A program made the translations under genes and the position numbers. This document shows, one piece after another, positions 43,901 through 62,702 of a DNA stretch of 64,000 nt. Under the pieces are notes generated by a model. It ran no database searches, was not told where the DNA came from, and was given only the letters and a program-made list of their open reading frames with translations. This DNA comes from a virus. Its lineage: Duplodnaviria; Caudoviricetes. The DNA is taken from IMG/VR virus record IMGVR_UViG_3300023218_000062; one strand, written 5' to 3'. The first letter of the stretch is position 1. Every line of letters starts with the position of its first letter.

Positions 43901-44027
43901 ACATCATCTTAAAACGTGCCGTATATCTTACAACCTAGATAGCTCTATGTCAAAGTATTTCAAGTACTTCATTAAATCACACTTTTTTGGCTTATATAAA
44001 TAAAATCGCGTATACATTGGAGAAAAA

Positions 44028-44741: not shown

Positions 44742-44771
44742 TATAGTTATTATAAAGAATATGGAAAACTT

Positions 44772-45401: not shown

Positions 45402-45487
45402 ACAAAGTTGACATATTATATTTAAGCATATAAGATACTCCGAATAGATCAATAGGTGATCTATAATTAAATTATACAATTAAATTA

Positions 45488-45847: not shown

Positions 45848-45866
45848 TGCGTGAAAAGAGGGAAAT

Positions 45867-45891
45867 AAAAAGGGGGCAATGCCCCCTTTTT
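45867..45891. terminator. Bidirectional terminator between convergent genes
   Basis: AAAAAGGGGGC-AAT-GCCCCCTTTTT. Confidence 0.85.
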
Positions 45892-45911
45892 ATTCTCATT
45901 GTATTTTTAAA

Positions 45912-46895
45912 TTATATATTTTTTCTTTTTGACTCCAGACTTTCCGCGATAGTTACAACTGAATGAAAAGATTCTGTATTTTTTTCAGACAGCTTCTTAG
46001 TAGATTTCAAGTGTTTATGAGCCTTTTTTATAAGATCATTAGCAACTTTTAAATTACCCTTTTTCTTATTGGTTTCAGCTTCCTTAATTAACGCTTTCGC
46101 TTCTTTTAAGAATTTTGCTGCCTTATTATATCCCTTCTCGATATCAGATGTGTCAATGTTGTGATCTTCGTTTATCACAGAAAATTGACTCTCAAAAAGT
46201 TGTTCCTTTTCTTCTTTTATATCTTTAAGTATAGTGTTGAACTGCTTTTTGGTTGCATTGATATTATCATTAACCTTGGCTTCAATTAATAGACTGTAAA
46301 CATTAATATTTTTCATAGTATTTTTTGCTCTTTTGTGTGTTTATTTATCGAAGTTAAATTCTTTATCTTCTTTATCAGATTTGGGATCTGAGTCTCTAGC
46401 ATCTGAAAATACACTATAGTCAAAATCTGGGTCTTCATCATCTTCCTCATAGTCGCTATCGGTACTCAAATCAAAGTCAAGATCATCTAAATCGGGAAGT
46501 TCTTCATTACCTTCTTCATCTTCACCACTTTTAAAATCCATACCACGATTTTGAAGTATCTGCTTGAGTTTGTGCGTTATATCAGTTCTTTTTTCTCCCG
46601 CAAAGATATCATCTTCTTCACTATCATAATCCGCGCCGCTGTCAGAGTCTTCAGGGTCTTCACTATCATAATTCATTCCAAAATCATTGTCTCCATCGAA
46701 GGACATTTCACCATTCTCCGATGATTCTATGCCCTCGATATCATCTTGCCCATTAACATAGGCCCCTTTCATACTCTTACCATGACGGGCAGGGCCAAAT
46801 TCTTTTTCAAAATCTAGTCCAGTATTCTCTGTATCTTCTTCATTATCCGTCATTCTGATATCAAATTCATTTATGATATTATAAAGTTCGCTCAT
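45912..46895 (-). CDS. Two hypothetical proteins (45912-46316 basic/coiled; 46341-46895 highly acidic)
   Basis: N-termini MKNINVYSLLIE and MSELYNIINE; the second is D/E-rich. Confidence 0.7.
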
Positions 46896-47005
46896 TTTTA
46901 ACTTACCTTTGCAGTTTATTTATACTTTATTTATAAGATACATGTATAATTGTTGACAATGTGAGCTTAAGCCAGTAATATTCCACTATTAATAGAGGAA
47001 TAAAA

Positions 47006-48082
47006 ATGAGAATAGAGGAAGATATGAAACTAGATTTTTCAGATGTTTTAATACGTCCTAAAAGAAGCAATTTGGCATCTAGAAAAGATGTTACGTTACA
47101 GAGAGATATAGTATGTAAATATTCTGGTAAAACTCTTTCGGGTGTGCCCATAATGAATTCTAATATGGGAACATCAGGTACTTTCAAGGTAAGCTCGGAA
47201 TTAACTAAGCAGAAGTGTTTTTCTACCGCTCATAAATTCTATAATTTGGAAAGCTGGGAAAATAAATTGAGTGCTGAATATGATGCCGAGAATTCAAGTT
47301 TTTTTGATAAATTCTTTTTTCCTATGGGACTAAATGATGCAGATCTTAGCGATCTTGAACATTTAATACTAGAAAAGGATTACCCTTTACAGAATATAAT
47401 GATTGATGTTGCCAACGGTTATTCTGAAAAGTTTGTTAATTTTATTTCTAGAGTTAGAAATATGTTTCCGGATCTTATTATAGCAGCGGGAAACGTAGCA
47501 ACTCCTGATATGACAGAAGCCTTAATTTTATCAGGAGCAGATATAATAAAAGTAAACATAGGAGCAGGATCGTGCTGCACCACTCGTTTAAAGGCTGGTG
47601 TAGGATATCCTCAACTGAGTGCAGTAATAGAATGTGCAGACGCTGCACATGGGCTAGGAGGTCATATTATATCTGATGGGGGTTGTGTTGATGTTGCGGA
47701 TTTTTGCAAGGCGTTTGGAGCGGGGGCAGATATTGTAATGTCTGGATCTTTTTTCGCCGCAACAGATGAATCAGATTGTGATGAGTATATAGATCCTGAT
47801 ACAGGTAAAATATATAAAGTAAATTATGGAATGTCATCAAAAACTGCACAAGATAAATATGGTGACGGAATGAAAGACTATAGAAGTAGCGAAGGTCGTA
47901 CTGTAATTCTCCCCCCGTCTGGACCAACTAAAGACGTAATAAACGATATATTAGGTGGTATACGTAGCTGTTGCACATATGTAGGGGCAAATAAGATAAA
48001 GGAACTACCCAAACGCACAACTTTTATTAAAGTAAATAACACGCACAACACGATAAATGAATCAAATACAATAGGAAACTAA
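47006..48082 (+). CDS. guaC: GMP reductase
   Basis: MRIEEDMKLDFSDVLIRPKRS.LASR, IDVANGYSE, AGNV.T, IGAGSCCTTR..GVGYPQLSAVIECADAAHGLGGHIISDGGC, YGMSS, YRSSEG. Confidence 0.96.
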   Translation: MRIEEDMKLDFSDVLIRPKRSNLASRKDVTLQRDIVCKYSGKTLSGVPIMNSNMGTSGTFKVSSELTKQKCFSTAHKFYNLESWENKLSAEYDAENSSFFDKFFFPMGLNDADLSDLEHLILEKDYPLQNIMIDVANGYSEKFVNFISRVRNMFPDLIIAAGNVATPDMTEALILSGADIIKVNIGAGSCCTTRLKAGVGYPQLSAVIECADAAHGLGGHIISDGGCVDVADFCKAFGAGADIVMSGSFFAATDESDCDEYIDPDTGKIYKVNYGMSSKTAQDKYGDGMKDYRSSEGRTVILPPSGPTKDVINDILGGIRSCCTYVGANKIKELPKRTTFIKVNNTHNTINESNTIGN

Positions 48083-48096
48083 AGGAGATTTATATT

Positions 48097-48423
48097 ATGA
48101 AAGATGAAGTAGTATTATTAAAATTAAGTGCCAGTTTTGCAGAAATTATCTGTAAAGTTAGTGATAGTGTCGCAGAAAAACTTATAGAAAAATCACCTAT
48201 TGATGCCTTTACTGTTATTTCACCATTTTTGATTCAAATGCAAAGAGATGAAAATGGAGATTTGGCCACCGGTTTACATGCTTTAAGCCTGATGATGAAA
48301 GGAGATCCGAAAAATGTAAAATTAAGATTAAATGACAGAGATATATTATTTGCGGCAAGACCCACAGATGATATAGAAAAACAATATAGACAAATGGTTA
48401 GTGGGATACAATTAGTGAAATAA
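48097..48423 (+). CDS. Conserved T4-like-phage-type hypothetical (Sm/SH3-like)
   Basis: VVLLKL..EII, P.DDIEKQYRQMVSGIQL pattern; AAGGAG RBS. Confidence 0.55.
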   Translation: MKDEVVLLKLSASFAEIICKVSDSVAEKLIEKSPIDAFTVISPFLIQMQRDENGDLATGLHALSLMMKGDPKNVKLRLNDRDILFAARPTDDIEKQYRQMVSGIQLVK

Positions 48424-49005
48424 TCATGACATGTATATGTTTATAAATATTATAGTAAACTGAAGATGTGGGCAATCATGGATTTACAATTAATTATAAC
48501 AATATTATTAATAATATCGGCAATATATGTTGTTGGGGGTATTATATCTTGTAGTATCGTATTATATCAAACCAAGGATTTTGAAGAAGCACTACAAGCA
48601 GGGATAATGTGGCCAATAGGATTATATTGGGTAATTTTAACTATATTACGACATTAAGTTACAAACTCAATATCCGATTAATGCACGTCTTCTTGCAATA
48701 TAATACTCTTGTTCATAGATGTCATGCATAATGGCTTTTTCATCCCATTCTTTACTGTGTTTATCCCATACGATATAAGAACCATCTTCGCCATGGACAA
48801 GAAAGAAATTGACCCCGCCATAGTTTGCAGGGTTATTTTTATCACATGGAATCATCTCATTCATTTGTTTTTTCGCTATTGCGTCATAAATTTTCAGTTT
48901 TATTGCAGAAGCTACTTTTGATTCTTTTTCTGTGATCGTTTTAAATGTAATCATAGTAATATAAATACTTTTCAGATAAAAATTATTTATATATTCCATA
49001 TTAAC

Positions 49006-49635
49006 ATGAATCTATTTAAAGAATTTAACCTTATGGAGGCGGAGAAGGCCGCTAATAAGGAAATCAAATATTCTATAGACATTATAAACCAAATGTATAA
49101 TGAATGGAAAAAGATCAAACGGCGCGTGAATGCCGTAGACATAGTTGTCACCACGGCCAACAAGCTATCTGTAATATCTCCCGCTGCTATAGATAGAATA
49201 CATGAAGCTTCAAGGGTAAAATTAACCTCTTTATTGATGCGCTGTATGGAACTGGGCTATTGGAAACCTTTAATCGAAAAGGCTCCCATATACAAAAAAC
49301 TATATCCATTAATTGCAAAACTCCACTCATATGATGCTAGAACAGGGACGGGGGGAACCCTAAAAGAGGTTATTCTCACCCGTTTGAGTGCCGCTCAGAG
49401 TTATCAAAACAAATTAGCAGACGGGACCATAGTATTCGTAGCATATGAACCTAAAATCACACCATCATATCAGAAATATTTATTTGGATCTGAATCTGAT
49501 AGAATTGTTGCTACTTTCAAAATGCAGACTTTAGAACTTCCACAAGATTATGCTTCATTATTAGAAACTTTAAGAATAAATCATGAAAAATCTATTAAAA
49601 AATTTAAAAATTCAATCAATAAAGGAAAGAAATAA
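49006..49635 (+). CDS. Hypothetical protein
   Basis: 209 aa; N-terminus MNLFKEFNLME. Confidence 0.65.
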   Translation: MNLFKEFNLMEAEKAANKEIKYSIDIINQMYNEWKKIKRRVNAVDIVVTTANKLSVISPAAIDRIHEASRVKLTSLLMRCMELGYWKPLIEKAPIYKKLYPLIAKLHSYDARTGTGGTLKEVILTRLSAAQSYQNKLADGTIVFVAYEPKITPSYQKYLFGSESDRIVATFKMQTLELPQDYASLLETLRINHEKSIKKFKNSINKGKK

Positions 49636-49669
49636 ATATAATAAATAAAATAACAATAAAGGAACAATC

Positions 49670-50371
49670 ATGAGTCAACAATGGTTTGGCAGAGTATATA
49701 AAGAAGATAAAAGAGATTTAGATTTCAAAATTGATGAAATTTTAACAACTATAGACATGCCTGACATATCAGAAAAGTTTTGGTGGGCTGATGGATGGAC
49801 TGGAAATCAAGGTGCTACATCCCACTGCGTGTCTTATAGTTGGAGTCATTGGTTTGAAGATGGTCCCGTAATTCAAGATGCTATAATAGGTAGGCAAAAG
49901 CCTGTATATGATACTACTATATTATATAATACATTCAGAAAATATGACGGCATAGAGGGTAATTACGATGGTACAACTGTTAGAGCAGGTGCTAAAACCT
50001 TTCAAAAATTGGGTATTATTAATGAATATAGATGGGCTCAAACTATAGAAGATGTCATCAACACTCTACTATACTTGGGTCCCATGGTTGTAGGTACTAA
50101 ATGGACAGAAGGAATGAATAATCCGAGTTCTGCACAACATATAATTCGGCCTTCTGGACGAGCATCTGGTGGCCATGCATATTTACTCAATGGTATTAAC
50201 ATGGAGAAGGAATTATTCAGGATAAAAAATTCTTGGGGTTCCACTTGGGGATATCGTGGCGCGGCATACATACGTTTTTCGGATTTTGAAAAACTATTAA
50301 AAGATCGCGGTGAGGCGTGTGTAGCATTTGAAAATAAAATAAATTCAATCGACGACCTCTCTGAAATATGA
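49670..50371 (+). CDS. Papain-like (C1) cysteine peptidase
   Basis: NQGATSHCVSYS (Q...C), GGHAY (His), IKNSWG (Asn); terminator at 50371-50401. Confidence 0.88.
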   Translation: MSQQWFGRVYKEDKRDLDFKIDEILTTIDMPDISEKFWWADGWTGNQGATSHCVSYSWSHWFEDGPVIQDAIIGRQKPVYDTTILYNTFRKYDGIEGNYDGTTVRAGAKTFQKLGIINEYRWAQTIEDVINTLLYLGPMVVGTKWTEGMNNPSSAQHIIRPSGRASGGHAYLLNGINMEKELFRIKNSWGSTWGYRGAAYIRFSDFEKLLKDRGEACVAFENKINSIDDLSEI

Positions 50372-50421
50372 AAAAAGGGGGGCTAAGCCCCCCCCTTTTT
50401 TAAGTCATCGTATCATCTATC

Positions 50422-50552
50422 TTGACAATTTCGAGAGGATTCTTGTTTCACAGTCCTGTGCATTGCTCCATACAGGAGATTCAGTCTTGCTAATTCCGTG
50501 TGCCCCACGGTTAAAATGTTTTTAGCTGCATTCACATCTCTGACATGATACG
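50422..50552 (-). mobile_element. IS200/IS605 tnpB 3'-end remnant with right end
   Basis: Reverse strand YHVRDVNAAKNILTVGHTELA..., ending GAATCCTCTCGAAATTGTCAA. Confidence 0.7.
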
Positions 50553-50916
50553 CTGAATTCGTTCCACTTTCAATTTTTGTTTTTCAAAATTATCACTTTA
50601 TTTTTCTTTCTTTGCCTGAATAAATACGTATTTTATAAATAGTTGAAATGAATATATCCAACGAATATGAAAGTACAACAGCTTATGGAAATTGCAGAGA
50701 AATATATAAACGCATACCAATATTACAAACAGATGTACAATACTAATAAAAATATGACTAGAGATTTCATTATAACGACAGTTGCTAGGATGTTTTTAAT
50801 TCCAAATATCAAAGACTTTCACACTTATGTGTTGAAAAGGGATAAAAATGAAAAACATGGAATGCTTTATCCTAAATAATTAATGGGAGTTACACTAAAA
50901 AGACAGCGTGTGAGGT

Positions 50917-51498
50917 TTGGTTTCGATGATTAGAATATTACAAATAACAATTGTTAGTTTATTTCTATTTGCGCCGCGAGCGCTTGCAGAAACTACAATA
51001 GCCGGGGTTTTTATAGTGACCAATGGGCTAGGTTATGATTCTCCCGGATATGGTATACAAATAGGACATAATGATAGATATGGAAACTGGGGTTGGGATG
51101 TCGAAGGTATGGCAGTAAATCATGGGAAAATCGGATCGAATAAAGGTTTTCGCTTACAGACTATTGGAATGGGAAGAAGATTTTTTGGAAACTATTTTAT
51201 AGAAGCAGGCATTGAATGGGGTGGCTATAAATCTGAGTTTCCAGATCGGCCAGCATGGGTAAAGTATGGGCGAGCGCCGGGAGTTGGAATCGGGGCATTA
51301 CAAGATGGTGTTGAATGGAAAATCCGCTATTTTGCGAAAGACACTACACCAAACAACACATCTGTGGCGGCTGCTGCAGTTGATATTCCGTTTGGTGAAT
51401 GGTCTATTGGAGCCACTTTAGAGCGATGGAAATTTGATCAAAATGATGATCGTTTATCAGGTATGCAAGTAGCATTGACATATGGAAGAAAATTTTAA
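50917..51498 (+). CDS. Outer-membrane beta-barrel-like protein
   Basis: Signal-peptide-like ILQITIVSLFLFAPRALA-E, alternating aromatic/Gly beta strands, C-terminal ..VALTYGRKF ending in Phe. Confidence 0.6.
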   Translation: MVSMIRILQITIVSLFLFAPRALAETTIAGVFIVTNGLGYDSPGYGIQIGHNDRYGNWGWDVEGMAVNHGKIGSNKGFRLQTIGMGRRFFGNYFIEAGIEWGGYKSEFPDRPAWVKYGRAPGVGIGALQDGVEWKIRYFAKDTTPNNTSVAAAAVDIPFGEWSIGATLERWKFDQNDDRLSGMQVALTYGRKF

Positions 51499-52262
51499 TT
51501 ATAATATGCCATACTAATAATGCCATTTTCATCTTCATATAGATAAGAACAAAATTCTACCCAACAACCACAATTCAAATACCTGACATTATTAATAATT
51601 TTATCTTCTGCATTGTGAATATGGCCACATATAACACCATTTGCATCATGCTCTTTCGCACATTCTACAACTAATTTTTCGTAATTATTAATATATTGTA
51701 TGGAACGTTTAACACTATGTTTTATCCATTGTGCCAAACTCCATTCTTTCATTTTAAAAAATCTTCTTAATTTATTTTGGAAATTATTTGCCCATATAAT
51801 CAATTTATAACTATAATTCCCTAAAGCATATATAAATGGATACATTCTAATAAGACCATCAAATTCATCACCATGCAGAATAAAAAATTCATCACCATTT
51901 TTTGTCGTATATGTGTCATTGTACTTTATGGTTATTCCATTAAAATTAACACCATCAGGTGATTCTTCTAAAAACTCTTCAGAAAGGAAATGATCATGAT
52001 TCCCTCTTATGTATGTAATTTTCACACCTTTATCTGCCATTCTAAATAATTTTTTTATTATCTTTCTATGTCTAGACCAAAATACTTTGTGGCTAAAATT
52101 TGTCATATCAATAATATCCCCTACAAGAAATAGCTGTTGGATTATATATTTCCCATTCTTGTCTTCTAAGGACTTTAAGAAATCATATAGTTTATTATAT
52201 TGGCAGTTAGGGTTTCCTAGATGTACATCGGATATCCAAATAGTAACGGGTTTTATTTTCAC
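51495..52262 (-). CDS. plcP: PlcP/LpxH-like metallophosphoesterase (phospholipase C type)
   Basis: WISDVHLG, LFLVGDIID, KGVKITYIRGNHD, LHGDEFD, WSLAQWIKHSVK..I..YE, NGVICGHIH.AE, YLNCGCWVE. Confidence 0.78.
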   Translation of the reverse strand: MKIKPVTIWISDVHLGNPNCQYNKLYDFLKSLEDKNGKYIIQQLFLVGDIIDMTNFSHKVFWSRHRKIIKKLFRMADKGVKITYIRGNHDHFLSEEFLEESPDGVNFNGITIKYNDTYTTKNGDEFFILHGDEFDGLIRMYPFIYALGNYSYKLIIWANNFQNKLRRFFKMKEWSLAQWIKHSVKRSIQYINNYEKLVVECAKEHDANGVICGHIHNAEDKIINNVRYLNCGCWVEFCSYLYEDENGIISMAYYN

Positions 52263-52290
52263 ATAAGCTCCTTTTCAGAAAATGTTAAAT

Positions 52291-52366
52291 TGGTGCCAAT
52301 AGAGGGATTTGAACCCCCGACCTTTTCCATACCAAGAAATTGCTCTTCCGGCTGAGCTATATTGGC
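52291..52366 (-). tRNA. tRNA-Thr(GGU)
   Basis: GCCAATA/TATTGGC, ATTTC-TT-GGT-AT-GGAAA, GGGGG-TTCAAAT-CCCTC, ACCA. Confidence 0.9.
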
Positions 52367-53158
52367 TTATTTATACTATTTATCATCCGGGCCCAATTGC
52401 GCAGGCGGTAATCTTCATACTTTGGCTCAAGCCGATGTATCACTACACTATACATATAAACTTCTGGATTGTCAATCCACTTTTGGCCTTCTTTACAGCT
52501 TGAATTCCATTCATGAGCAAATCTCCATATCTCAAGAGATTTCTTTTTAAAATCATCGGGCATTTTACTATCAATTTTTTGTGGAATAGATTCATTAAAT
52601 ATCCCAGTGTTAATGGCTTCTTTCTTGCCAATAGTTTTTAATTTTTTGGTATTTATTGCCACACATTCAAAAGCATATCGAGCATAAGCCTTTTTCATTT
52701 TTGAGGCTTCAATCCATTTTGGATCTCTAGCTTTATAAAAATCTGTGTAATATTGTATTGTCTTTGTGTTATCATTTTGAACTATTCTATATTTTTCAGG
52801 AACCCAATAGCTTACATCTTTTTCCAGCGAGGGTTTCTTTTTCTTTCCTACAGGTTCTAATATAATTCTAGGTGTGTTCCCAAATCTATATCGGATAAAT
52901 TTAAAGAATCTATATGGGACTTCTACCGTAAGTTTATTATTTGAATCCATTAATATGCTTGTATTCTACTTTTACTATTCTCTGTGGAGGATACCATACA
53001 GCACTGCTAGGTTCTTGTTTTTCAAAAACCCCTGTATTTTTTATTTCATTTAATCTAGTTTCTAAAGTATATCTACCTTGAATAATTTGTTCTTCAATTA
53101 TTGGCATCTTTTTTCCATTAATATAAATCTTGTATTCAATATATTCTCTATTTTCCAT
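52357..53158 (-). CDS. Two hypothetical ORFs (52357-52950, 52937-53158)
   Basis: Overlapping stop/start arrangement between tRNA-Ser and tRNA-Thr; the first has an ASCH-like 'C..W..NP.V' ending. Confidence 0.6.
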
Positions 53159-53179
53159 ATATAATTATCCTGTTAAATT

Positions 53180-53274
53180 TGGTGGAAGGAGAGGGATTCG
53201 AACCCTCGGAACATGGGGCTACCATATTCAAGACATTAGCAGTGTCCCGCCTTCGTCCACTCGGCCACCCTTCC
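53180..53274 (-). tRNA. tRNA-Ser(GCU), long variable arm
   Basis: GGAAGGG/TCCTTCC, GGACA-CT-GCT-AA-TGTCT, long V-arm, GAGGG-TTCGAAT-CCCTC, ACCA. Confidence 0.93.
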
Positions 53275-53352
53275 AATTTAATAATATTATAATAGTTTCA
53301 GTGTTTATTGTCAATTGGTAAATACTATTTATATTATAATATTTTTGCATAA

Positions 53353-53673
53353 ATGTATATAACTTCAAAAGAATTCAAACATTTATTAAATAATCTTAGA
53401 GCCAATGCAAAAAAGCGTGGAATATCATTTGACTTGACTACTGCCGATATTGATTATATTGGAATTCCTCTGACATGCCCAGTATTAGGAATTCCTTTAA
53501 CATTTAATAAAGGCTCTCCAAAAGACAATTCCATATCATTCGACCGTATTGATTCAAAAAAAGGTTATACTAGAGATAATATAATTATTGTATCTCATAG
53601 AGTTAATAAACTAAAATCTGATTCAACTTTTGAAGAAATGAAAAAAATATTTGAATTTTATAATGACCTATAA
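53353..53673 (+). CDS. His-Me-finger/HNH-like phage protein
   Basis: AKKRGISFDL, CPVLGIPL, SFDRIDSKKGYTRDN, VNKLKSD. Confidence 0.65.
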   Translation: MYITSKEFKHLLNNLRANAKKRGISFDLTTADIDYIGIPLTCPVLGIPLTFNKGSPKDNSISFDRIDSKKGYTRDNIIIVSHRVNKLKSDSTFEEMKKIFEFYNDL

Positions 53674-53722
53674 AAAATCCCCTCAGAAGAGGGGATTTTT
53701 ATCGGTCTCGCAGAGCTAAGAA

Positions 53723-54016
53723 TTAACTAGCCCCACACGTCCCCTCACCACATGCGCCTTCTTTGTCTTCTGATTCTTCACCACACGAACCTTCACCGCA
53801 CGCGCCTTCAGAATCTTCACTATCGCTTTCTTCACCACAAGAGCCTTCCCCGCAAGAGCCTTCTTTGTCATCTGCTATAGCATTTAATGGCATGCCAGTA
53901 TTCTCTGCCATGAATAGGTTAGCCTCATTTTCTAAATTTATTTCCGTGGCCGATGCTACTCCTGCCATAGTGGTTAGTCCTGCTATCGTTGCGATTGTTA
54001 GTTTGTTAGACTTCAT
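53723..54016 (-). CDS. HvfA/oxazolin-like RiPP precursor: signal peptide + EGxCG repeats
   Basis: AAAGGAG RBS then MKSNKLTIATIAGLTTMAGVASA-; six EG[SAT]CG repeats in three pairs (EGSCGEGSCG, EGACGEGSCG, EGACGEGTCG). Confidence 0.75.
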   Translation of the reverse strand: MKSNKLTIATIAGLTTMAGVASATEINLENEANLFMAENTGMPLNAIADDKEGSCGEGSCGEESDSEDSEGACGEGSCGEESEDKEGACGEGTCGAS

Positions 54017-54137
54017 ATTACTTCTCCTTTGTGTTGTATATATTATTGTACCTCTCGTTCTATTATTTATCACGTTAAAGCTTAGAGGTCTTATATCCAT
54101 TGAAGTTTATCATTTTTCACACATAATTATGCGTATT

Positions 54138-54614
54138 TTAGTGGGCTAAGGCGCATGATTTTATAATATGGTGAATTTCCATATCCTTTTTTTCAAGAGG
54201 AGGGGGGTTACCATCAAATATAGAGCCTATTGAATCATAACTGTAAATGCGTTCAGGTATAACTATTCCCACTGAAGTTGTTGCGTTATTTAACGCGGAT
54301 TCTTCTTCTTCAAAGCACTTAACAGGATAAACCGTACCGTTACGTGTAAGAAGATTTAGCTTCCTAGCTAAATCCTGCAAATCTCTTTGGCTGCCACCGT
54401 TCAACAATATTATTGTTTTATCATTTTTGCTCCATTCATAGAATATTTTAGACGCAATATTACTATACATCATATATTGAACGCTCATTTTTTGAATAAC
54501 ATGAGCAGCTTGTAATCCTTGTTGCAGAGAAGACAGGTACATATTACCAAAGAAATATCCTCTATACTTTTGGTCATTTTCTGATTTCTCAGTACTTAAA
54601 CTTTCTTTGGACAT
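54138..54614 (-). CDS. Peptidyl-tRNA hydrolase 2 (PTH2)-like protein
   Basis: LSSLQQGLQAAHV, W..NDKTIILL, F.EE..ALNNATTSVGI. Confidence 0.55.
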   Translation of the reverse strand: MSKESLSTEKSENDQKYRGYFFGNMYLSSLQQGLQAAHVIQKMSVQYMMYSNIASKIFYEWSKNDKTIILLNGGSQRDLQDLARKLNLLTRNGTVYPVKCFEEEESALNNATTSVGIVIPERIYSYDSIGSIFDGNPPPLEKKDMEIHHIIKSCALAH

Positions 54615-54876
54615 TTTTACCCACCCAATTTATGAATGTAGCTAGTTTATCATGGGATTTTAATTTTGTCAAGTCATTATATTCTTTAGCTAAATCCTTA
54701 TTCGATAAAAATTTATGAATTGCTCCATGGCAATCATGACAAATAAAAATTTTGTTATTCTTCATTTCATCAATAGTAAACATCTTTTTACACCATTTTT
54801 TATTATGCATTTCTTTTGGTATTAAATGGTGTTGAGTGAGTTCTAAGTTACGCTCACATAATTCACAATTTTTCAT
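54589..54876 (-). CDS. Small HNH-type endonuclease-like protein
   Basis: CELCER..LTQHHLIPK, ICHDCHGAIH. Confidence 0.75.
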   Translation of the reverse strand: MKNCELCERNLELTQHHLIPKEMHNKKWCKKMFTIDEMKNNKIFICHDCHGAIHKFLSNKDLAKEYNDLTKLKSHDKLATFINWVGKNVQRKFKY

Positions 54877-54953
54877 TAATGATAATTATCCTTTTTCTTT
54901 TTAGCTGATATACTTCCTATTGAAAAACGGGGGAAGGCCCCCGCTCAGTATTT

Positions 54954-57029
54954 TTATACAATATATTCGCTACTAATTTCCGTTATATTCATCGGTGTAA
55001 TATCACCTTCGAACAGTCCAAATACGATATCTGCATGATTTGGATCATCTACTACGGTAGCATTACGACCTATTGCATGCATCATGAAAAGATCGTATAA
55101 GCTTACTTTATTATTGATAGAAAGCATTGCTTCAGCCACATCGCGTACCGATGCTGCATTACTATTAACATTGTTAGGCAATCTGCCAAATGCATCTGCG
55201 TGTGACATGTCTGTCCATATAATTTCTCTTGTTGTAAGATCAAAAATTACAGGCATAGCACTTGTGCTGTCAAAGTTCATGTCTAGCTTACATTCAACTG
55301 TCTTGGGATCGTAAATTTCGTTGCTCTCCGGAGCAGATCTAGCCATCCAACCGATGAAGCAAGTGTCATGCTCTGCGAAGGTTTTCCCACGGAATACCAT
55401 CACATTCATCGCAACATATCTTGCACCAGCATTAAGAGCCTTTTCAATATCGATATCGATAAATTCACTAGCGCCGTGTGGCGCTCTAGTTATATCACCT
55501 GAATGATATAATCCAGACCTCGGTACTCTGATATTGCAATAGAAAATCTTATCCATGACATGGAAGTTTTCGTTAAATAGTGTAGCACTCAAATCAATAT
55601 CTAGTCCAACCCAATACAAGAATAAACGTACAGTGTTTGTTTCTTCATCTCCAAAAGGAAAACGAGTTCCTCTCGCCGCCGAAAATGTACCATCACTTGC
55701 ACTTCTCTGTTGAAAAGGGATAGGGCATCTTTGTAATGCTGGATCAATATACACCTTACCCAAATCTTCCAGATTAGAAAACCTGTTGGTTAGTATCTTA
55801 GATATTCCAGTTACGAGACTATTAACGACTTTTTCCGGAAGAGCACTCTGTCCACTGATCAATTTCGCCTTTTGAATATTTCCTTTGGGAAACACTACTC
55901 TCTTCTCGGTACTGTTATTTCTAGTTGCAAAATGACCTTTCAACTGTAGAAGAACTTTGGTTGACACATTATCAGCCACAGATATAAACTTGTTTGCAAC
56001 AATTATCTGATTTCGTTCGGTACCTGCCATTCTTAACAAATGATCCAATCTACGCGCAAAGTCGCCGGGACGAGTCACTAATAGCTTAGTAGCCTTAACT
56101 GGATGGCCAGCCCCCAAATGACGCTCAACTTTAGTGTTAAAGGTTTCAACACTTTCATTTTCACGTAATGGTTTGATGGCATCATATACTTTCTTGGAGT
56201 AGTCTCCAACATGCAAAGAGTGTGCCAACTTAACCCACTTTCCGCTATGTCGTACAAGATCTTCTCTGTTAATGACAGATTCTAATCCTTTAACAAGGAT
56301 TCGTCTTTCTGGTCTTTTGAAATTCCTGAATTTAGTGTTGTCTGCTAATGAAACATCACCACCGGACATGTGTGTGGCAATACGCAACACATCGTTGGGG
56401 TTCTTAACCAGTTCATTGATTGGAATTCCATTTTCTACCATGTATGCACCAATAATGCACAGATTTTCCTTGAACGGAATTGTTTCCGGAAATACGAGAT
56501 TTCCGTAATGTTGCAAGAACCATTCAATGATTTCCTTATCTATACTAGATACAGAATCGTTTGATGCCAATATCTTTGTAAATATTGATGCAAACTCGTC
56601 TTCTGTCGCAATTCCCAAAGTTCTAAACTTCACATTCTCAAATGCGAATTCTCTAGGAAGTTTTTCATAATCAGGCTTCCAGTAACCGTAACTCCAATAA
56701 TGCACGATAGCGTTCAAAAACAATTCCAAATCACTGGCTTCGATAACCTGACGAGGAAAATTCGGATACATTGGTTTATGAACTACATTATCGCCTTTCA
56801 ACTCTTTCAATGTTTTAACTAATACTGCTGAAAGGTCTCCTAGCATACGATCTGGAAGCTCTGAGATCACTTTTAAGAGATCTTCATCCATTATATAACC
56901 TAGGTCCATGATATTGGCTTGAAGGGTCATGGCCTTTGCTGTAATCTGTCCCGTTGGACTCTCACTGCGCAGGTGCGCAGGTATAACTACTTTTTCTAGC
57001 TTCTTGATAGCTATTTCTGTCTTATTCAT
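54954..57029 (-). CDS. Large protein with C-terminal TerD-type domain and long helical N-terminal region
   Basis: PMYPNFP.QV, PGDFARRLDHLLR, RLFLYW..DIDLSA, HSGDITRAPHGASEFIDIDI; AAGGAG RBS. Confidence 0.75.
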   Translation of the reverse strand: MNKTEIAIKKLEKVVIPAHLRSESPTGQITAKAMTLQANIMDLGYIMDEDLLKVISELPDRMLGDLSAVLVKTLKELKGDNVVHKPMYPNFPRQVIEASDLELFLNAIVHYWSYGYWKPDYEKLPREFAFENVKFRTLGIATEDEFASIFTKILASNDSVSSIDKEIIEWFLQHYGNLVFPETIPFKENLCIIGAYMVENGIPINELVKNPNDVLRIATHMSGGDVSLADNTKFRNFKRPERRILVKGLESVINREDLVRHSGKWVKLAHSLHVGDYSKKVYDAIKPLRENESVETFNTKVERHLGAGHPVKATKLLVTRPGDFARRLDHLLRMAGTERNQIIVANKFISVADNVSTKVLLQLKGHFATRNNSTEKRVVFPKGNIQKAKLISGQSALPEKVVNSLVTGISKILTNRFSNLEDLGKVYIDPALQRCPIPFQQRSASDGTFSAARGTRFPFGDEETNTVRLFLYWVGLDIDLSATLFNENFHVMDKIFYCNIRVPRSGLYHSGDITRAPHGASEFIDIDIEKALNAGARYVAMNVMVFRGKTFAEHDTCFIGWMARSAPESNEIYDPKTVECKLDMNFDSTSAMPVIFDLTTREIIWTDMSHADAFGRLPNNVNSNAASVRDVAEAMLSINNKVSLYDLFMMHAIGRNATVVDDPNHADIVFGLFEGDITPMNITEISSEYIV

Positions 57030-57118
57030 CTTCGTTCTCCTTGAAGTAAAGTGGAAGAACCATTTTCTTCCGTAGCCTCAAAGCACCAGCAGCCCATCCG
57101 GTCTTTTAGAGTCAAATT

Positions 57119-57190
57119 GTCGGTAAGTTAAAGAGCTAAGTCTAGTTTTCGAAAGTAAAATTATTAGAAGGATGCTCTTTTATAGCCGAC
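57119..57190 (-). ncRNA. Structured leader/small RNA upstream of the TerD-domain gene (Y-RNA-like stem)
   Basis: Promoter TTGACA(57228-57223)-N17-TAGGAT(57205-57200). Transcript GUCGG-CUAUA-AAAGAGC...GCUCUUU-AACUUA-CCGAC forms a two-part stem. Confidence 0.55.
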
Positions 57191-57865
57191 CAGATGTGTA
57201 TCCTAGCACCATCGTTGACCGTTGTCAACTCTTTTTAGAGTTTTTGTTCCATTATTATTTTATTTTCATCATATAAGTCGTACCATATATCATCGTGTAG
57301 TACTACACATAACTCATCTGGTTGATACATAAAAGTAACATTTCATGCATCTTGTATATCTGTGAATTTACGAATTAAATCTGCACATTCAGATTCTTCG
57401 AATAAATGTGTACTTTCATCATCTTGCATAGTGGGTTTGACATTTTCATTTTTTTTTGATTATCGGAAGCATTCAAACCCGTTATATATAAAGGAACCAT
57501 GGTAAGAATCAATATTATTAATATATATTTTATATTCATTTTTAAATATTACATTTATTTTATATTTATAGACGCCTAAAAGTGATATGTAAAACCTATC
57601 CCACTCCATATAAATTTATAGTTTGAGTTTATTCTAGACTCTATACGTGCTCTCATGTTAAAATTCATGAATATAGTATATATGCCTTACAACATACTCC
57701 CCTTCTATTTCAACGGCATGTGCTTTTATTGTTTCTTTAAGTGTGGCTGTTTCCATGTTAAATCCTAAACTTTTATATTGTTTATAACCCCGATGTTTTC
57801 AAAGACCATTAATAAATCCGATTACGTAAATTTTCTACTCTCCACTGTATTGTATTCTGTTTTTT

Positions 57866-58657
57866 CTATGTCCATAGCGAATCCCGTATTTCTATTAATG
57901 TTCCTAACATTCTATCATCTTCTTCGCGCCACACAGTTTCTAGTCTAGAAGTTTTGTCACACCATTCTTTGAATCTGATGTAATCTTCTGAATTATTTTC
58001 TTCCCATTCCGTAGAGAAAGCCGAGCTTAGCTTAGGTAGTACGACTGGGCATTCAGGCACTATCCTATTTGGTCTGATCTTCGTGTACCAAAGATATAAC
58101 TTCAATATTTTTTTGGCGTTCTCAGCCTGATAAGGGCTTTCATCTCCTAAGCTTATTTCCCATTTGAGATAGTCTAATCCGAATTCTTTATGTCTGTTCG
58201 GTTTAAACCGTAAAAAATACGGCAAAAACCTTTTCCATCCCATTAATTCTTTCTGTTTCTCCTTTTCCCCGAATACGCAATTCATATAAGCACATTCTTT
58301 CTCCACATAATCTACAAGTAGGGAAAAGCAAGCGTGAAACATTAACTCTGGCTTATCATGATAAGAACGAGATAGATCGGTTCTAACAATATCAGGCTTG
58401 GTGATAGAATATTTTATGGCATACAGTGCATCTATTATTTTCCATCTAATGTAGTTTATTATATGTATGTGGAATCCATCTTTAACCAAGAAATACCTGA
58501 TTGGCGCATTCTTTTTAAAACTTTTTTCAAAATTATTCCACCCTTCGAAGGTGTCAGACACAGGTGGGTTATATTTCATCCATTTTTTAAAATTATCAAA
58601 CATTTTTAGTTTCCTATATGTAAAATCTAGTATAACATATATATAAAGCACTGTCAA
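57866..58657 (-). CDS. Hypothetical Trp-rich protein
   Basis: 263-aa ORF; probable start at MFDNFKKW. Confidence 0.7.
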   Translation of the reverse strand: MTVLYIYVILDFTYRKLKMFDNFKKWMKYNPPVSDTFEGWNNFEKSFKKNAPIRYFLVKDGFHIHIINYIRWKIIDALYAIKYSITKPDIVRTDLSRSYHDKPELMFHACFSLLVDYVEKECAYMNCVFGEKEKQKELMGWKRFLPYFLRFKPNRHKEFGLDYLKWEISLGDESPYQAENAKKILKLYLWYTKIRPNRIVPECPVVLPKLSSAFSTEWEENNSEDYIRFKEWCDKTSRLETVWREEDDRMLGTLIEIRDSLWT

Positions 58658-58677
58658 AATCGTTGTTTTTAATAATT

Positions 58678-58753
58678 TGGTCGGAGTGACAGGATTTGGG
58701 CCTCCACACGGCCTCCCCCGACCGTGGACTCTGCCAAACTGATCTACAGTCCG
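58678..58753 (-). pseudogene. Degenerate tRNA-Pro-like sequence
   Basis: CGGACTG...AGTTTGGC...CAAATCCTGTCACTCCGACCA retains Pro-type ends, but the anticodon and T stems do not pair. Confidence 0.65.
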
Positions 58754-59491
58754 TTAACGATGTTCCGGGTTTTCAGCTTTTTTATTTCTTCCCTCAAACT
58801 CTTCTAAATTATTTCCTTTGTTAGGTATTCCGCCTTTTAACATTCTGGCAAAGTGTATAAGATTCCATGCCATAAATTGAGAAGTCTTTTTAGTGTATTC
58901 ATTATCCAATCCTGCACCATCATCGCCATACGATTTACCCGGTCCAATTTCGCCTATCCATCCGGTATCCACCTGTGGTGGAATTGTATATCCAATATGG
59001 TTCAAAGAATATAATATACTTTTGGCGCAGTTTTTTACACCATCTTCGTTTCCTGTTATAACACATCCAGCAACTTTACCATAATAAATATATTGTCCCT
59101 TATCGTTTGTTTGACCACTCATAGAATATAATCTTTCCATGACTCTTCCCCATATGGAGCTAGGCTCTCCTAACCAGATAGGTGAACCTATGACTAATAT
59201 ATCTGCTTTATTCACTTTTTCCTCAAAAAAATTGGGCCAATCATCTTTCTTAGCTCCATGTTTTGTCATATCTGGAAAAGTTCCCGGAGCAAGGTCATAA
59301 TCTACGGCTCTAACTTTTTCAACCTCAATACCCTCGGATTTATATATTTTCTCTTGTTCGTTGAAAAGTCTTTCAGTATGTGATCTTTTATTGTCCGATT
59401 TTAATGAGCAGTTTATGAATAATACCTTCATCTTTTCTTTTGATTTGGCTTCAGTTAAATTCTTTATGCCTGTTACATTAGACAAATCCAT
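58754..59491 (-). CDS. Flavodoxin-like NAD(P)H-dependent FMN reductase family protein
   Basis: FINCSLK..SHT, ADILVIGSPIWLGEPSS, ERL, KVAGCVITGNEDG; N-terminal extension ending ..NLTE. Confidence 0.85.
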   Translation of the reverse strand: MDLSNVTGIKNLTEAKSKEKMKVLFINCSLKSDNKRSHTERLFNEQEKIYKSEGIEVEKVRAVDYDLAPGTFPDMTKHGAKKDDWPNFFEEKVNKADILVIGSPIWLGEPSSIWGRVMERLYSMSGQTNDKGQYIYYGKVAGCVITGNEDGVKNCAKSILYSLNHIGYTIPPQVDTGWIGEIGPGKSYGDDGAGLDNEYTKKTSQFMAWNLIHFARMLKGGIPNKGNNLEEFEGRNKKAENPEHR

Positions 59492-60426
59492 TACGGTGCA
59501 TCCTTATTTTAATTTATTTATTTTAATATTCGTCACATGTTAAGTTTTCAACAATCTAATCAAGATATTTTCGGTTTTGTAGTTGTTTTTCATGATCCGT
59601 TATATTAAACATAATTAGTTCCCTAAGCCCGTTTTGCTCTATCTAATGCCTTTTTACATTTATTACAGGTATAATCGATATCAGCTTTATTATCACAAAA
59701 GTCACACAGCGTAATGTTATTGTTATTAGCTCTGTTGAATCTATGTGCGGCCTTATATAGACGTTTAGCCGTTACCTCTGTAAAGGGAACTGGAGTACGT
59801 CCTCATACTATATGGTTGACTACTTCATCTGAAGGAGTTTCTTTCATTGCTTTTCCTACTCGTTCATAATTTAAATACCTCTTTAATAAGTCTCCTGAAA
59901 TCGTGTTACAAATGCAAGAGATTAATCTTGCTGACTCCACTGGTCGAAAGTGCGAAAACCCCAGTTTCATTGTCTTTACATACCCTCGATTTCCCTGACA
60001 CACTTCATCTTCGGTTGGAGAATTTGAAAAAGCTAAATATCTATTCTTTGCAATAACTTAAGTAGACTATTATTTATAGAATATATCTCATTTTGCACAT
60101 ATTTAAGTTTTGCAGAAACATTAGAGTCATTATGTATTTCATTAATTTTGGTCTCTTTTTGTTCTTCCTCATCCATGTCAGGAATTAGTATATCATTCAG
60201 GGCGTCATATAATTTATCTCTAATATCAGCTAGGTGTTCCACTTGCTCCATCAGATGTGTGATGTTCGCCGTGATAGAACCTACGTCTTTATCTTCTGGA
60301 GTGGTTCCATCGAATGCTTCCTCTGGTGTTGGATTTAGTTTGCGGTTTCTTTTTGCTCATATAAAAAGATCTTTTTTAAAGTGTATGGGGATAATATATT
60401 AATCGTGGGGGGAATGTCAGGGGGGA

Positions 60427-60502
60427 TGGGGGCGATAGTAGGACTTAAACCTACGACCTCTTCCGTATGAAGGAATTGCTCTATCAACTGAGCTATATCG
60501 CC
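60427..60502 (-). tRNA. tRNA with CAU anticodon on a Thr-like body; probably degenerate
   Basis: GGCGATA/TATCGCC; anticodon arm ATTCC-TT-CAT-AC-GGAAG (one mismatch); non-canonical D-loop (TTGATA), T-loop TTTAAGT and discriminator C. Confidence 0.6.
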
Positions 60503-60513
60503 ATTTTTAAGGT

Positions 60514-60591
60514 TGGTGCGCATCCCAAGATTTGAACTTGGAACCTTTCGATTATCACAGTCGAATGCCCTATCAATTGAGCTAGTCGCGC
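60514..60591 (-). tRNA. tRNA-Ile-like with 9-nt anticodon loop (CTGTGATAA); possibly degenerate
   Basis: TTCGA/TCGAA stem, CCAAG-TTCAAAT-CTTGG, ACCA; one acceptor mismatch. Confidence 0.6.
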
Positions 60592-60630
60592 AGGTTTCGT
60601 ATATTTGTTTATTTATCAAAAAACAAAGAC

Positions 60631-60685
60631 CCCCCTGACTTCAACTTTGCCAAAGTTGCGCTCTACCTACTGAGCTTATAGCCGC
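60631..60685 (-). pseudogene. Truncated tRNA-Ala(GGC)
   Basis: GCGGCTA..GCTCAGTAGGTAGAGC, CAACT-TT-GGC-AA-AGTTG, then breaks off in the T-arm with no 3' acceptor strand. Confidence 0.7.
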
Positions 60686-60967
60686 ATATATTAAATAGAC
60701 ATTCTATCGCTTTGTTCTTCGTTTAAAATATCATAAACGGATAAAGATGAACCCGCATTTTTAAGATTCTGTTCCATTACACTAATAAAATCAGGTATAT
60801 CATCATTAGGTATATAATGGACAAGTTTTCTGACTCTATCCTCTGCTTCTATACTTTTTTTTGTTCTAGTATCATTCAAATGCATAATTGTAAATCCTGT
60901 GGATCCATTGCTTTTTGTTTTTTCCTATATCATATTTATGTAATTATGTGATGAAGTATAAAAAAAT

Positions 60968-61042
60968 TGGAAGGAATGTAGGGAATCGAACCCTATTCAA
61001 CAGGATCAAAGTCTATTGGCTCACCATATGCTCTTCATTCTT
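60968..61042 (-). tRNA. tRNA-Gln(UUG), several mismatches
   Basis: CT-TTG-AT loop, TAGGG-TTCGATT-CCCTA, 3' CCA; acceptor has an A-C mismatch and the D-stem is weak. Confidence 0.65.
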
Positions 61043-61389
61043 ACAATTTGATATTGAGTAATATCAAAGTTCTCCGTTCACTATCAATTTAAACATAAAT
61101 TCACTTACATTTACATGGATATTTAATTTTGGCTGCATTAAAGAAAAATCTAAAAGTTCACAAAATTCTTTAATAGATCGTTCAGCGTATTCTGAGAATG
61201 TACCTTCAGTCCCGTCCATTTTTATATAAGTATCTTCTATCTCATGTAACTTTCCTAGACGTTCAATAGCTCTTTTTTTAAATTGTAAAATGCTTGATTG
61301 TGATGTTAATATTATACTATTCATTGTATATCCTATTTTTGGGGATATTATAGCATAAGATCAATCTATTTGCAACATATTTCGGCACA

Positions 61390-62070
61390 TTATTTTACCC
61401 ACCAGTTAATCGAATTATACACTTCTGTTTGGGTTTTATGGTTTTTATGATATTGTTTGTATAATGTATTTCCTGAAGTTTTAATTGGTGTAAGATAATT
61501 TTCTTGATGCGCTACCACTATTCTTTTTTTATTTTGCTCTGCCGCCTGACTTGAAACTAATATATCATCCATATAATAATATTTAAACTTATTCACATCT
61601 ATTATTATGTTATTGGTGTTCCAGCAACTAACGCCGTTGCCTATTACTTCCACTTCCCTGTCTCTAATATTTTCGTCTTTAAAATGATAATATTTTTTAT
61701 AATCCTTGAAATAATTTTTTATTTTCTTGTGTTTTTCAAATTTTCTTCCATGATATGATATTATCACATCATCATTGTATTCATTTAGTTTTTGTATACT
61801 ATATTTTATATAATCTGAGGGGTATAATATATCATCATCTATACAAAAATAATATTCGTCTGGATTAGTTGCCCAAAAAACTTTACCGCTTGATTTAAGG
61901 TCGACCCCTTGGTGTATAGATATTTTTTCTTCCTTGAATTTTTCTGGTATGGTTTCAAAATTATTTAGATATAATCTAATATACGATACTTGATCATATA
62001 TTGATTCTATTACTTTTATGGCGCTATCTGTTCTTTCAGGCATAGTTGCCATGTTGGCAGATATTTTCAT
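61390..62070 (-). CDS. GT-A-fold glycosyltransferase
   Basis: ANMATMPER, YLNNF, YYFCIDDDILYPSDY, GNGV, MDDIL. Confidence 0.8.
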   Translation of the reverse strand: MKISANMATMPERTDSAIKVIESIYDQVSYIRLYLNNFETIPEKFKEEKISIHQGVDLKSSGKVFWATNPDEYYFCIDDDILYPSDYIKYSIQKLNEYNDDVIISYHGRKFEKHKKIKNYFKDYKKYYHFKDENIRDREVEVIGNGVSCWNTNNIIIDVNKFKYYYMDDILVSSQAAEQNKKRIVVAHQENYLTPIKTSGNTLYKQYHKNHKTQTEVYNSINWWVK

Positions 62071-62693: not shown

Positions 62694-62702
62694 TATTTGA
62701 TC

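What the first reader, a model, noticed from the sequence alone, without database searches (positions are those of the whole stretch)
53723..54016. Orphan HvfA/oxazolin-type metallophore RiPP precursor in a phage
Seen: a 97-aa secreted-type peptide with six EG[S/A/T]CG repeats in three pairs, strong RBS and terminator; no DUF692 (MNIO) or DUF2063 genes nearby in this window. Known: EGKCG-repeat precursors such as H. influenzae HvfA are Cys-modified by MNIO/partner enzymes into copper-binding oxazolone/thioamide products. Inference: the phage supplies only the precursor and hijacks host MNIO machinery, or uses the unmodified Cys-rich acidic peptide to buffer copper/metal stress in the infected cell. 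Lys is replaced by Ser/Ala/Thr in an acidic context, which may alter metal or enzyme specificity.
Basis: partly seen in the sequence, partly recalled or inferred. Interest (0 to 1): 0.76.

Follow-up and report, generated by a model that had tools for sequence, protein, structure and literature searches.

The report
Phage-borne copper-peptide precursor without maturase
An uncultured giant salt-lake phage carries a well-conserved gene for a small secreted cysteine-repeat peptide of the HvfA/"captophorin" copper-binding family. The iron enzyme that normally modifies such peptides is not in this 64-kb window, so the phage probably relies on its host's enzyme, an arrangement not described for viruses in the papers searched.

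Summary
**Observation confirmed.** Window 53723-54016 (-) encodes a 97-aa peptide. It has a Sec-type signal peptide, a short N-region and six EG[S/A/T]CG motifs in three pairs. An AAGGAG ribosome-binding site lies upstream and a hairpin terminator downstream.

**Family.** It passes NCBIfam's HvfA-family domain model (42.8 bits, cut-off 19.5). It matches the layout of Haemophilus HvfA but falls below the strict HvfA equivalog cut-off.

**Phage setting.**
- The window is phage DNA: T4-type RNA ligase, HNH nucleases, scattered tRNAs.
- The gene has phage-like codon composition.
- It sits in the same place in a second phage lineage (88% identical over aligned residues), with dN/dS of 0.14.

**Missing maturase.**
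- No MNIO, HvfC or DoxX gene is in the 64 kb.
- All 30 bacterial relatives with readable downstream DNA have the MNIO gene directly after the precursor.
- About 200 kb of the phage genome could not be scanned.

**Rarity in viruses.** HvfA-like genes are almost absent from viral collections: 1 provirus among 2.9 million IMG/VR contigs.

**Host.** Two cargo genes point weakly to halophilic Gammaproteobacteria (Wenzhouxiangellaceae), most of which carry an MNIO.

Ser, Ala or Thr in place of Lys is normal in this halophile clade. The modification is now assigned as 5-thiooxazole.

**Status.** Maturation by the host enzyme is inferred, not shown. Bacterial stand-alone precursors were already noted elsewhere in this scan.

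The parts
53723..54016 (-). hvfA-like CDS, 97 aa plus stop; stand-alone precursor of the HvfA / Buf_EGKCG / captophorin family
   Evidence: Translation. NF050137 42.8 bits, above the 19.5 cut-off; NF050188 41.4 bits, below the 95 cut-off, but aligned over model positions 5-95 of 96. dN/dS 0.14 against the relative in L001.
53948..54016 (-). Sec-type signal peptide, residues 1-23, predicted cleavage ASA|TE
   Evidence: Read from the sequence. Aligns with the signal peptides of bacterial family members. HvfA has a 24-residue signal peptide cleaved by signal peptidase I (PMC11252979).
53870..53947 (-). N-region, residues 24-49, holding the N-x-F-x-A-E motif; F35 is invariant in 19 aligned homologues
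   Evidence: Alignment A1.
53834..53863 (-). Repeat pair 1, EGSCGEGSCG, residues 52-61
   Evidence: NF050137 best stretch covers residues 52-81.
53780..53809 (-). Repeat pair 2, EGACGEGSCG, residues 70-79
   Evidence: The relative in L001 has one extra pair inserted here, a 16-aa indel.
53732..53761 (-). Repeat pair 3, EGACGEGTCG, residues 86-95
54024..54029 (-). Shine-Dalgarno AAGGAG, 7 nt upstream of the ATG
   Evidence: Sequence.
54045..54073 (-). Weak sigma70-like promoter candidate (GTGATA, 17 nt, TACAAT; 9 of 12). It overlaps GATAAATA, a 7-of-8 match to the T4 late-promoter box. Unverified.
   Evidence: This is only a consensus match, and the region has 11 such sites against 6.2 expected.
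53669..53692 (-). Hairpin plus T-run terminator, bidirectional with the convergent gene 53353-53673

Best explanation
The gene is a phage-borne, stand-alone precursor of the HvfA / EGKCG 'captophorin' family. A halophilic gammaproteobacterial lineage donated it long ago, and the phage has kept it as an auxiliary (host-fitness) gene. Proposed mechanism, all steps inferred: (1) the peptide is made during infection; (2) the host's own MNIO-HvfC (PME1) complex in the cytoplasm converts its six Cys, in three EGxCGEGxCG pairs, to 5-thiooxazoles; (3) Sec exports it and signal peptidase I cuts after ASA; (4) in the periplasm it binds Cu(I), roughly one Cu per pair of modified Cys. This would top up copper buffering at a time when host gene expression may be curtailed by the infection, keeping the cell productive until lysis. 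Shown here: family membership, phage location, purifying selection, absence of the maturase genes from this 64 kb, and obligate linkage of precursor and maturase in the bacterial relatives. Inferred: modification in trans, export, copper binding, and the benefit to the phage.
For: Family: NF050137 42.8 bits against 19.5. The architecture matches HvfA, which is 95 aa with a 24-aa signal peptide and three xEGKCGEGKCG pairs (PMC11252979). Phage setting: T4 Rnl1 phrog_562 at 1e-99, HNH nucleases, phage-only families and 8 tRNAs. Native to the phage: GC3 is 0.34, or 0.24 in the relative, like neighbouring phage genes (0.15-0.34) and unlike bacterial hvfA (0.65-0.70). The synteny is the same in L001. 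The sequence is identical in contigs of 4 runs of one study. Selected: dN/dS 0.14 at dS 0.45, within the range of the neighbours (0.06-0.19); the indel is a whole repeat pair and stays in frame. Maturase dependence of the family: 30 of 30 bacterial loci with readable downstream DNA have the MNIO directly after hvfA, and most also have HvfC and DoxX. No maturase in the phage window, none in 50,697 GenBank phages by tblastn, and none in 7 phage or provirus records searched whole with PF05114. Substrate plausibility: FonBC tolerates Ala, Thr or Arg at motif position 3 (PMC13097082). HvfA lacking both signal peptide and N-region is still fully modified (PMC11252979). Host plausibility: hvfA and a second cargo gene (HerA-like, 64-68% identity) both have Wenzhouxiangella/Wenzhouxiangellaceae as their closest named bacterial relatives. 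52 of 61 sampled genomes of that family have an MNIO. A cultured saltern jumbo phage, Salicola phage SCTP-2, has 30% GC over 41.6 kb.
Against: The host is not identified. No CRISPR-like or near-identical DNA match to 93 Wenzhouxiangellaceae genomes was found; only the hvfA repeats and tRNAs matched. That family has 59-70% GC against 33% for the phage. About 200 kb of the phage genome was not readable, so a phage-borne MNIO elsewhere is not excluded. Captophorin operons are described as stress-induced (PMC13097082), so the host enzyme may be absent in unstressed cells. The timing of expression is unknown. No enzyme has been tested on an EGSCG-type substrate. Nothing here measures modification or metal binding.
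Confidence: 0.5

Rival explanations
1. The peptide works unmodified. It would be a secreted, very acidic Cys-rich periplasmic peptide (mature part 74 aa, 21 Asp+Glu, 6 Cys) that binds metals through thiolates or carboxylates, or acts as a redox or disulfide buffer, with no MNIO involved.
For: No maturase in the window. Composition. Stand-alone precursor genes are frequent in bacteria (PMC12452194; L006).
Against: Unmodified HvfA is isolated with its Cys oxidised to disulfides (about -8 Da for 8 Cys; PMC11252979), and that form is unlikely to bind Cu(I). The exact EGxCG spacing and Gly at motif position 5, which the MNIO requires (PMC13097082), are kept in both phage lineages. All 30 close bacterial relatives with readable downstream DNA are enzyme-linked.
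Confidence: 0.25
2. The gene is not an orphan: the phage encodes its own MNIO and partner elsewhere in its roughly 270-kb genome.
For: Only 64 kb could be searched.
Against: tblastn found no MNIO in 50,697 GenBank phage records. PF05114 found none in 5 distant relatives, 1 provirus and SCTP-2. In bacterial relatives the genes are always adjacent. No first-stage note on this genome mentions MNIO or copper, which is only weak evidence.
Confidence: 0.07
3. It is an anti-host decoy. The peptide would saturate or mis-engage the host MNIO-HvfC complex, or withhold copper from periplasmic cuproenzymes, so as to weaken a host stress response or rewire respiration.
For: It retains the substrate motifs and the conserved N-region Phe. 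Phages often encode mimics. Otherwise this is inference only.
Against: There is no sign of a dead-substrate design: all Cys and Gly are kept. No precedent was found in the papers searched.
Confidence: 0.08
4. It is a neutral hitch-hiker, a decaying remnant, or an assembly chimera with bacterial DNA.
For: It is a single small gene among mobile HNH cassettes. Related bacterial hvfA fragments co-occur in the same metagenomes (loose ends).
Against: dN/dS is 0.14 with an intact frame in two lineages. GC3 is phage-like. Single contigs of 3.4-40 kb span the stretch (records 1, 3, 6) in three of the four runs, without differences. The synteny is conserved.
Confidence: 0.04

Closest known systems
HvfA / oxazolin precursor of nontypeable Haemophilus influenzae (NTHI1441; hvf operon doxX-hvfA-hvfB-hvfC; PMC11252979)
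   Same: Almost the same size (95 against 97 aa). Both have a 23-24-residue Sec signal peptide, a short N-region and three xEGxCGEGxCG pairs giving six target Cys. The phage peptide aligns over positions 5-95 of the 96-position equivalog model.
   Different: It scores below the equivalog cut-off (41 against 95 bits). Ser, Ala or Thr replaces Lys. The linkers are acidic. The two N-region Cys (C38/C43 disulfide) are missing. It is encoded by a phage with no hvfB, hvfC or doxX in the window.
EGSCG-type HvfA-family precursors of halophilic Gammaproteobacteria (Wenzhouxiangellaceae, Thioalkalivibrio), e.g. P0004 and P0008 in the rnf-nth-hvfA-MNIO-hvfC-doxX context
   Same: The same EGSCG, EGACG and EGTCG motifs, acidic linkers and N-P-F-x-A-E N-region. 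They are 45-56% identical overall and are the best non-phage hits.
   Different: The bacterial genes have 59-65% GC (GC3 0.65-0.70), mostly eight Cys, and are always followed directly by the MNIO. The phage gene has GC3 0.34, six Cys, and stands alone.
Stand-alone bufferin / Buf_EGKCG precursor genes in bacteria (PMC12452194)
   Same: A precursor gene not linked to an MNIO gene, in some cases a single-gene transcription unit.
   Different: In those cases the maturase can be elsewhere in the same genome. Here the precursor sits in a virus, so the maturase would have to come from a different genome, that of the host.
FonA / fontiphorin and gonophorin, the 'captophorins' (PMC13097082)
   Same: An EGxCG 5-mer repeat substrate for PME1-dependent MNIOs that form 5-thiooxazoles. 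FonBC accepts Ala or Thr at motif position 3.
   Different: FonA belongs to the Lys-Cys group and is cluster-encoded. No phage member is mentioned in the text of the paper that I searched.
Phage auxiliary genes that replace host proteins during infection (e.g. cyanophage psbA) and prophage-encoded RiPPs with their own maturase (e.g. sublancin on SP-beta). Both are from my own knowledge, not checked here.
   Same: The logic is shared: a host-derived gene kept under selection in a phage to sustain a host function during infection.
   Different: Here the phage would supply only a substrate that needs a host enzyme. SP-beta carries the modifying enzyme as well.

Membership tests
HvfA family / Buf_EGKCG-oxazolin / captophorin 'repeat' precursors | Paired EGxCG motifs (KCGExKCG-twice domain, NCBIfam NF050137) | tested here: met
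   42.8 bits against a cut-off of 19.5, E=2.9e-11, 3 stretches. Six motifs in three pairs.
HvfA family / Buf_EGKCG-oxazolin / captophorin 'repeat' precursors | N-terminal Sec signal peptide | tested here: met
   Judged by eye only: Lys2 and Lys5, a 16-aa hydrophobic core, ASA|TE. It aligns with the signal peptides of named family members. No SignalP run was possible.
HvfA family / Buf_EGKCG-oxazolin / captophorin 'repeat' precursors | Genetic linkage to MNIO (PF05114), PME1/HvfC (PF09836, PF22106) and often DoxX | tested here: not met
   None in the 64-kb window. The rest of the genome was not readable. 30 of 30 bacterial relatives with readable downstream DNA are linked. Unlinked precursors are accepted members in bacteria (PMC12452194).
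HvfA family / Buf_EGKCG-oxazolin / captophorin 'repeat' precursors | Cys converted to 5-thiooxazole by MNIO-PME1 (about -4 Da per Cys) | not testable with these tools
   Needs co-expression and mass spectrometry.
HvfA family / Buf_EGKCG-oxazolin / captophorin 'repeat' precursors | Cu(I) binding by the modified peptide | not testable with these tools
   Needs metal titration.
HvfA sensu stricto (NCBIfam equivalog NF050188) | Score at or above the equivalog cut-off of 95 bits | tested here: not met
   41.4 bits, although collinear over model positions 5-95 of 96. It is a family member, not an HvfA orthologue.
Phage auxiliary (host-derived) gene | Lies in a phage genome, has cellular homologues, and is conserved under purifying selection among related phages | tested here: met
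   Phage context. Bacterial homologues. dN/dS 0.14 and conserved synteny in a second lineage.

The most novel reading that the evidence does not exclude
A virus supplies only the substrate of a RiPP pathway. The phage-encoded captophorin precursor would be matured by the host's MNIO-HvfC and exported to reshape periplasmic copper handling in the infected cell. That would make it the first virus-encoded MNIO substrate and a case of RiPP biosynthesis split between a virus and its host.
Probability: 0.45. Interest if true: 0.7.

Novelty: new variant of a known kind. Interest (0 to 1): 0.55.

Why it matters
[quoted passage not shown] None of the four MNIO/captophorin papers I searched for the word mentions phage.

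- **For phage biology:** a conserved phage copy suggests that periplasmic copper buffering limits phage production in salt lakes, which would add metal homeostasis to the auxiliary functions phages carry.
- **For RiPP enzymology:** it offers a natural test of whether MNIO-PME1 enzymes accept foreign precursors in trans.
- **For ecology:** it gives a genetic clue to the host of an uncultured jumbo phage clade, because the host should carry an MNIO-HvfC pair.

Tried and rejected
- **Complex prediction:** phage peptide residues 24-97 with Wenzhouxiangella HvfB and HvfC. No verdict (score 0.01, partner pLDDT 31). Not used as evidence either way.
- **The look-up of sequencing runs:** four DNA metagenome runs of one study, with no RNA holder listed. 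Nothing can be said about expression.
- **IMG/VR:** the exact 68-nt search found no copy of this phage. The P0001 pattern scan found none either. The neighbouring 158-aa gene has no close relative there.
- **tblastn of P0001 against GenBank phages:** no match. The low-complexity filter weakens this negative.
- **Reaching the rest of the genome:**
  - The protein tables list a 270,653-bp contig.
  - The look-up of encoding contigs showed only 3-59-kb contigs.
  - The genome search does not hold those records, and no whole genome is held for the window.
- **Host search by DNA:** window 44001-64000 against 93 Wenzhouxiangellaceae genomes gave only hvfA-repeat and tRNA similarity. There were no spacer-like hits.
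- **ArdC-like cargo gene as a host clue:** uninformative. The named hits are Alphaproteobacteria at 41-46% identity.
- **Alternative genetic code:** considered because of the low ORF density at 4-28 kb. Not pursued, since code 11 reads this region well.
- **Virion structural protein:** rejected. The product is 97 aa, has a signal peptide and matches no PHROG family.

Full report
**What is there.** The - strand of window 53723-54016 encodes a 97-aa peptide.
- Residues 1-23 look like a Sec signal peptide: two Lys, a 16-residue hydrophobic core, then ASA|TE.
- Residues 24-49 form a short N-region.
- Residues 50-97 hold six EG[S/A/T]CG motifs in three pairs, at residues 52/57, 70/75 and 86/91, separated by acidic linkers.
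- The predicted mature part has 21 Asp+Glu, 2 Lys+Arg and 6 Cys.
- AAGGAG lies 7 nt before the ATG.
- A hairpin plus T-run follows the stop codon and is shared with the convergent endonuclease gene.
- Gene callers also report a 125-aa form starting at 54100. The 97-aa start carries the RBS, matches the N-termini of homologues, and is the start called in the closest relative.

**Family.**
- NCBIfam's HvfA-family domain model NF050137 is passed clearly: 42.8 bits against 19.5, E=2.9e-11.
- The strict HvfA equivalog NF050188 aligns end to end (positions 5-95 of 96) but scores 41 bits against a cut-off of 95.
- Pfam and PHROGs have no match.
- The layout mirrors H. influenzae HvfA: 95 aa, a 24-aa signal peptide, and three AEGKCGEGKCG motifs whose six Cys are modified by HvfB (MNIO) with HvfC (PMC11252979).
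- That modification was first assigned as oxazolone/thioamide. It has since been reassigned to 5-thiooxazole, and the class has been named captophorins (bioRxiv 10.64898/2026.06.05.730506; PMC13097082).

**The Lys replacement is not special to the phage.** Among 223 homologues, the nearest non-phage ones come from halophilic Gammaproteobacteria (Wenzhouxiangellaceae, Thioalkalivibrio and related MAGs). They use the same EGSCG, EGACG and EGTCG motifs and acidic linkers. FonBC tolerates Ala, Thr or Arg at this motif position, but not Phe or Glu (PMC13097082).

**Phage setting.** The window has 30-44% GC in 2-kb windows, mostly about 33%, and scattered tRNA genes.
- It carries a T4-type RNA ligase 1 (phrog_562, 1e-99), HNH and endonuclease VII-like genes, and several phage-only families.
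- The large neighbour at 54954-57029 has relatives only in jumbo and other large phages.
- Earlier notes of this scan describe the genome as an uncultured T4-like giant phage of salt lakes, with a terminase elsewhere. I did not test that.

The gene belongs to the phage.
- Its GC3 is 0.34, or 0.24 in the relative. Neighbouring phage genes have 0.15-0.34 and bacterial hvfA has 0.65-0.70.
- Single contigs span the stretch without differences in three of four runs of one study, and pieces without differences cover it in the fourth. Some of these runs may be the source of this DNA.
- A second phage lineage (L001, JGI 3300022725) has the same gene order: HNH, hydrolase-like gene, hvfA, convergent endonuclease.

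**Selection.** Between the two lineages the peptide is 88% identical over aligned residues.
- dN is 0.063, dS is 0.45 and dN/dS is 0.14, within the range of the flanking genes (0.06-0.19).
- The only indel is one whole repeat pair, giving 6 against 8 Cys.
- This fits a functional protein-coding gene whose repeat number can vary, as it does across the family.

**Maturase.** Of the 32 bacterial loci carrying close relatives, 30 have readable downstream DNA.
- In all 30 the MNIO gene starts directly after hvfA.
- It is usually followed by hvfC and doxX.
- The other two loci end at hvfA.

The phage window has none of these genes. tblastn gave a best E of 0.8, and profile HMMs built from 35, 28 and 20 sequences gave a best E of 0.4 across all six-frame ORFs. 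The following also lack an MNIO:
- 50,697 GenBank phages, by tblastn
- five distant phage relatives, searched whole with PF05114
- Salicola phage SCTP-2
- the one provirus with an HvfA-like ORF

The remaining roughly 200 kb of this phage could not be read. This is the main gap.

**Rarity.** Degenerate patterns from the family alignment matched 81 stretches in 2.9 million IMG/VR contigs.
- Only one of them encodes a relative.
- That one is an EGKCG plus EF-hand-like chimera at the edge of a provirus, a type already described in bacteria (PMC12452194).
- The five distant relatives and SCTP-2 also lack the HvfA domain. The control genomes did not ring for that model, so the negative is soft.
- None of the four MNIO/captophorin papers I searched for the word mentions phage, and two wider searches found no paper linking them.

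**Host.** No direct link was found. Two indirect clues agree.
- The nearest bacterial HvfA relatives are Wenzhouxiangellaceae.
- A second cargo gene, HerA-like at 9809-11191, is 64-68% identical to its best bacterial hits; the named ones among them are Wenzhouxiangella and Wenzhouxiangellaceae proteins.
- 52 of 61 sampled genomes of that family carry an MNIO.
- The GC gap is large, 33% against 59-70%.
- The cultured saltern jumbo phage SCTP-2 is also 30% GC over 41.6 kb. Whether its host is comparably GC-rich I could not check.
- I rate this host assignment at roughly 40%.

**Most likely mechanism (0.5).** The phage makes only the precursor.
1. The host's MNIO-HvfC converts the six Cys to 5-thiooxazoles.
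2. Sec exports the peptide.
3. The peptide buffers periplasmic Cu(I), about one Cu per modified pair by analogy with oxazolin (PMC11252979).

This would sustain the infected cell. Only the sequence-level facts above are shown. Modification, export, metal binding and benefit are all inferred.

| Rival | Confidence |
|---|---|
| Unmodified acidic Cys-rich peptide | 0.25 |
| Anti-host decoy | 0.08 |
| Maturase elsewhere in the phage genome | 0.07 |
| Neutral remnant or assembly artefact | 0.04 |

**Verdict.** It is a real, conserved gene and a new member of a known peptide family. Its setting, a lytic-type giant phage with no maturase in reach, is undescribed in the papers searched. It is a variant of a known kind, moderately interesting, and directly testable.

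Noticed in passing
window 50917-51498 (+): A 193-aa ORF with a signal-peptide-like N-terminus and a C-terminal ...YGRKF, as in outer-membrane beta-barrels. It has no Pfam or PHROG match. It could be a second envelope-directed phage protein, 2.2 kb from hvfA.
   Followed up: partly
window 9809-11191 (+): A HerA-like (DUF853) ATPase with a very strong Pfam match (4e-181) and higher GC (0.425). Its best bacterial hits are 64-68% identical, and the named ones among them are Wenzhouxiangella. It is conserved at 71-88% in related phage contigs. It may be a host clue.
   Followed up: partly
window 54020-54643, run X4 record 12: A co-occurring strain keeps the 5' end of hvfA but replaces the 622-nt upstream segment (the hydrolase-like gene) with 848 other letters. 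In L001 the same neighbour is only 57% identical while hvfA is 88%. The locus is mosaic, with a boundary at the hvfA start.
   Followed up: no
L034 7923-8369 (IMG/VR provirus record): The only HvfA-like ORF found in 2.9 million viral contigs. It is 148 aa with a signal or transmembrane segment, two EGKCGEG[KQ]CG pairs and an EF-hand-like tail, and sits after lysis and SOS-peptidase-like genes. The record has no MNIO.
   Followed up: partly
L006 296-2116: A bacterial hvfA relative followed by an ECF sigma factor, a DUF3379 protein and DoxX, with no MNIO within the 2.9-kb contig. Earlier notes of this scan describe the same layout in Woeseiaceae.
   Followed up: no
window, 24 sites: The T4 late-promoter box TATAAATA occurs 24 times against 15 expected (3 of 100 shuffles reach 24). 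Several copies lie 20-35 nt upstream of ORF starts, e.g. 29912, 34751, 43995 and 46917.
   Followed up: no
window 53776-53869, loose ends in runs X1-X4: Short GC-rich contigs in the same metagenomes match only the repeat region and continue into other sequence. They are probably bacterial hvfA genes co-occurring with the phage.
   Followed up: no
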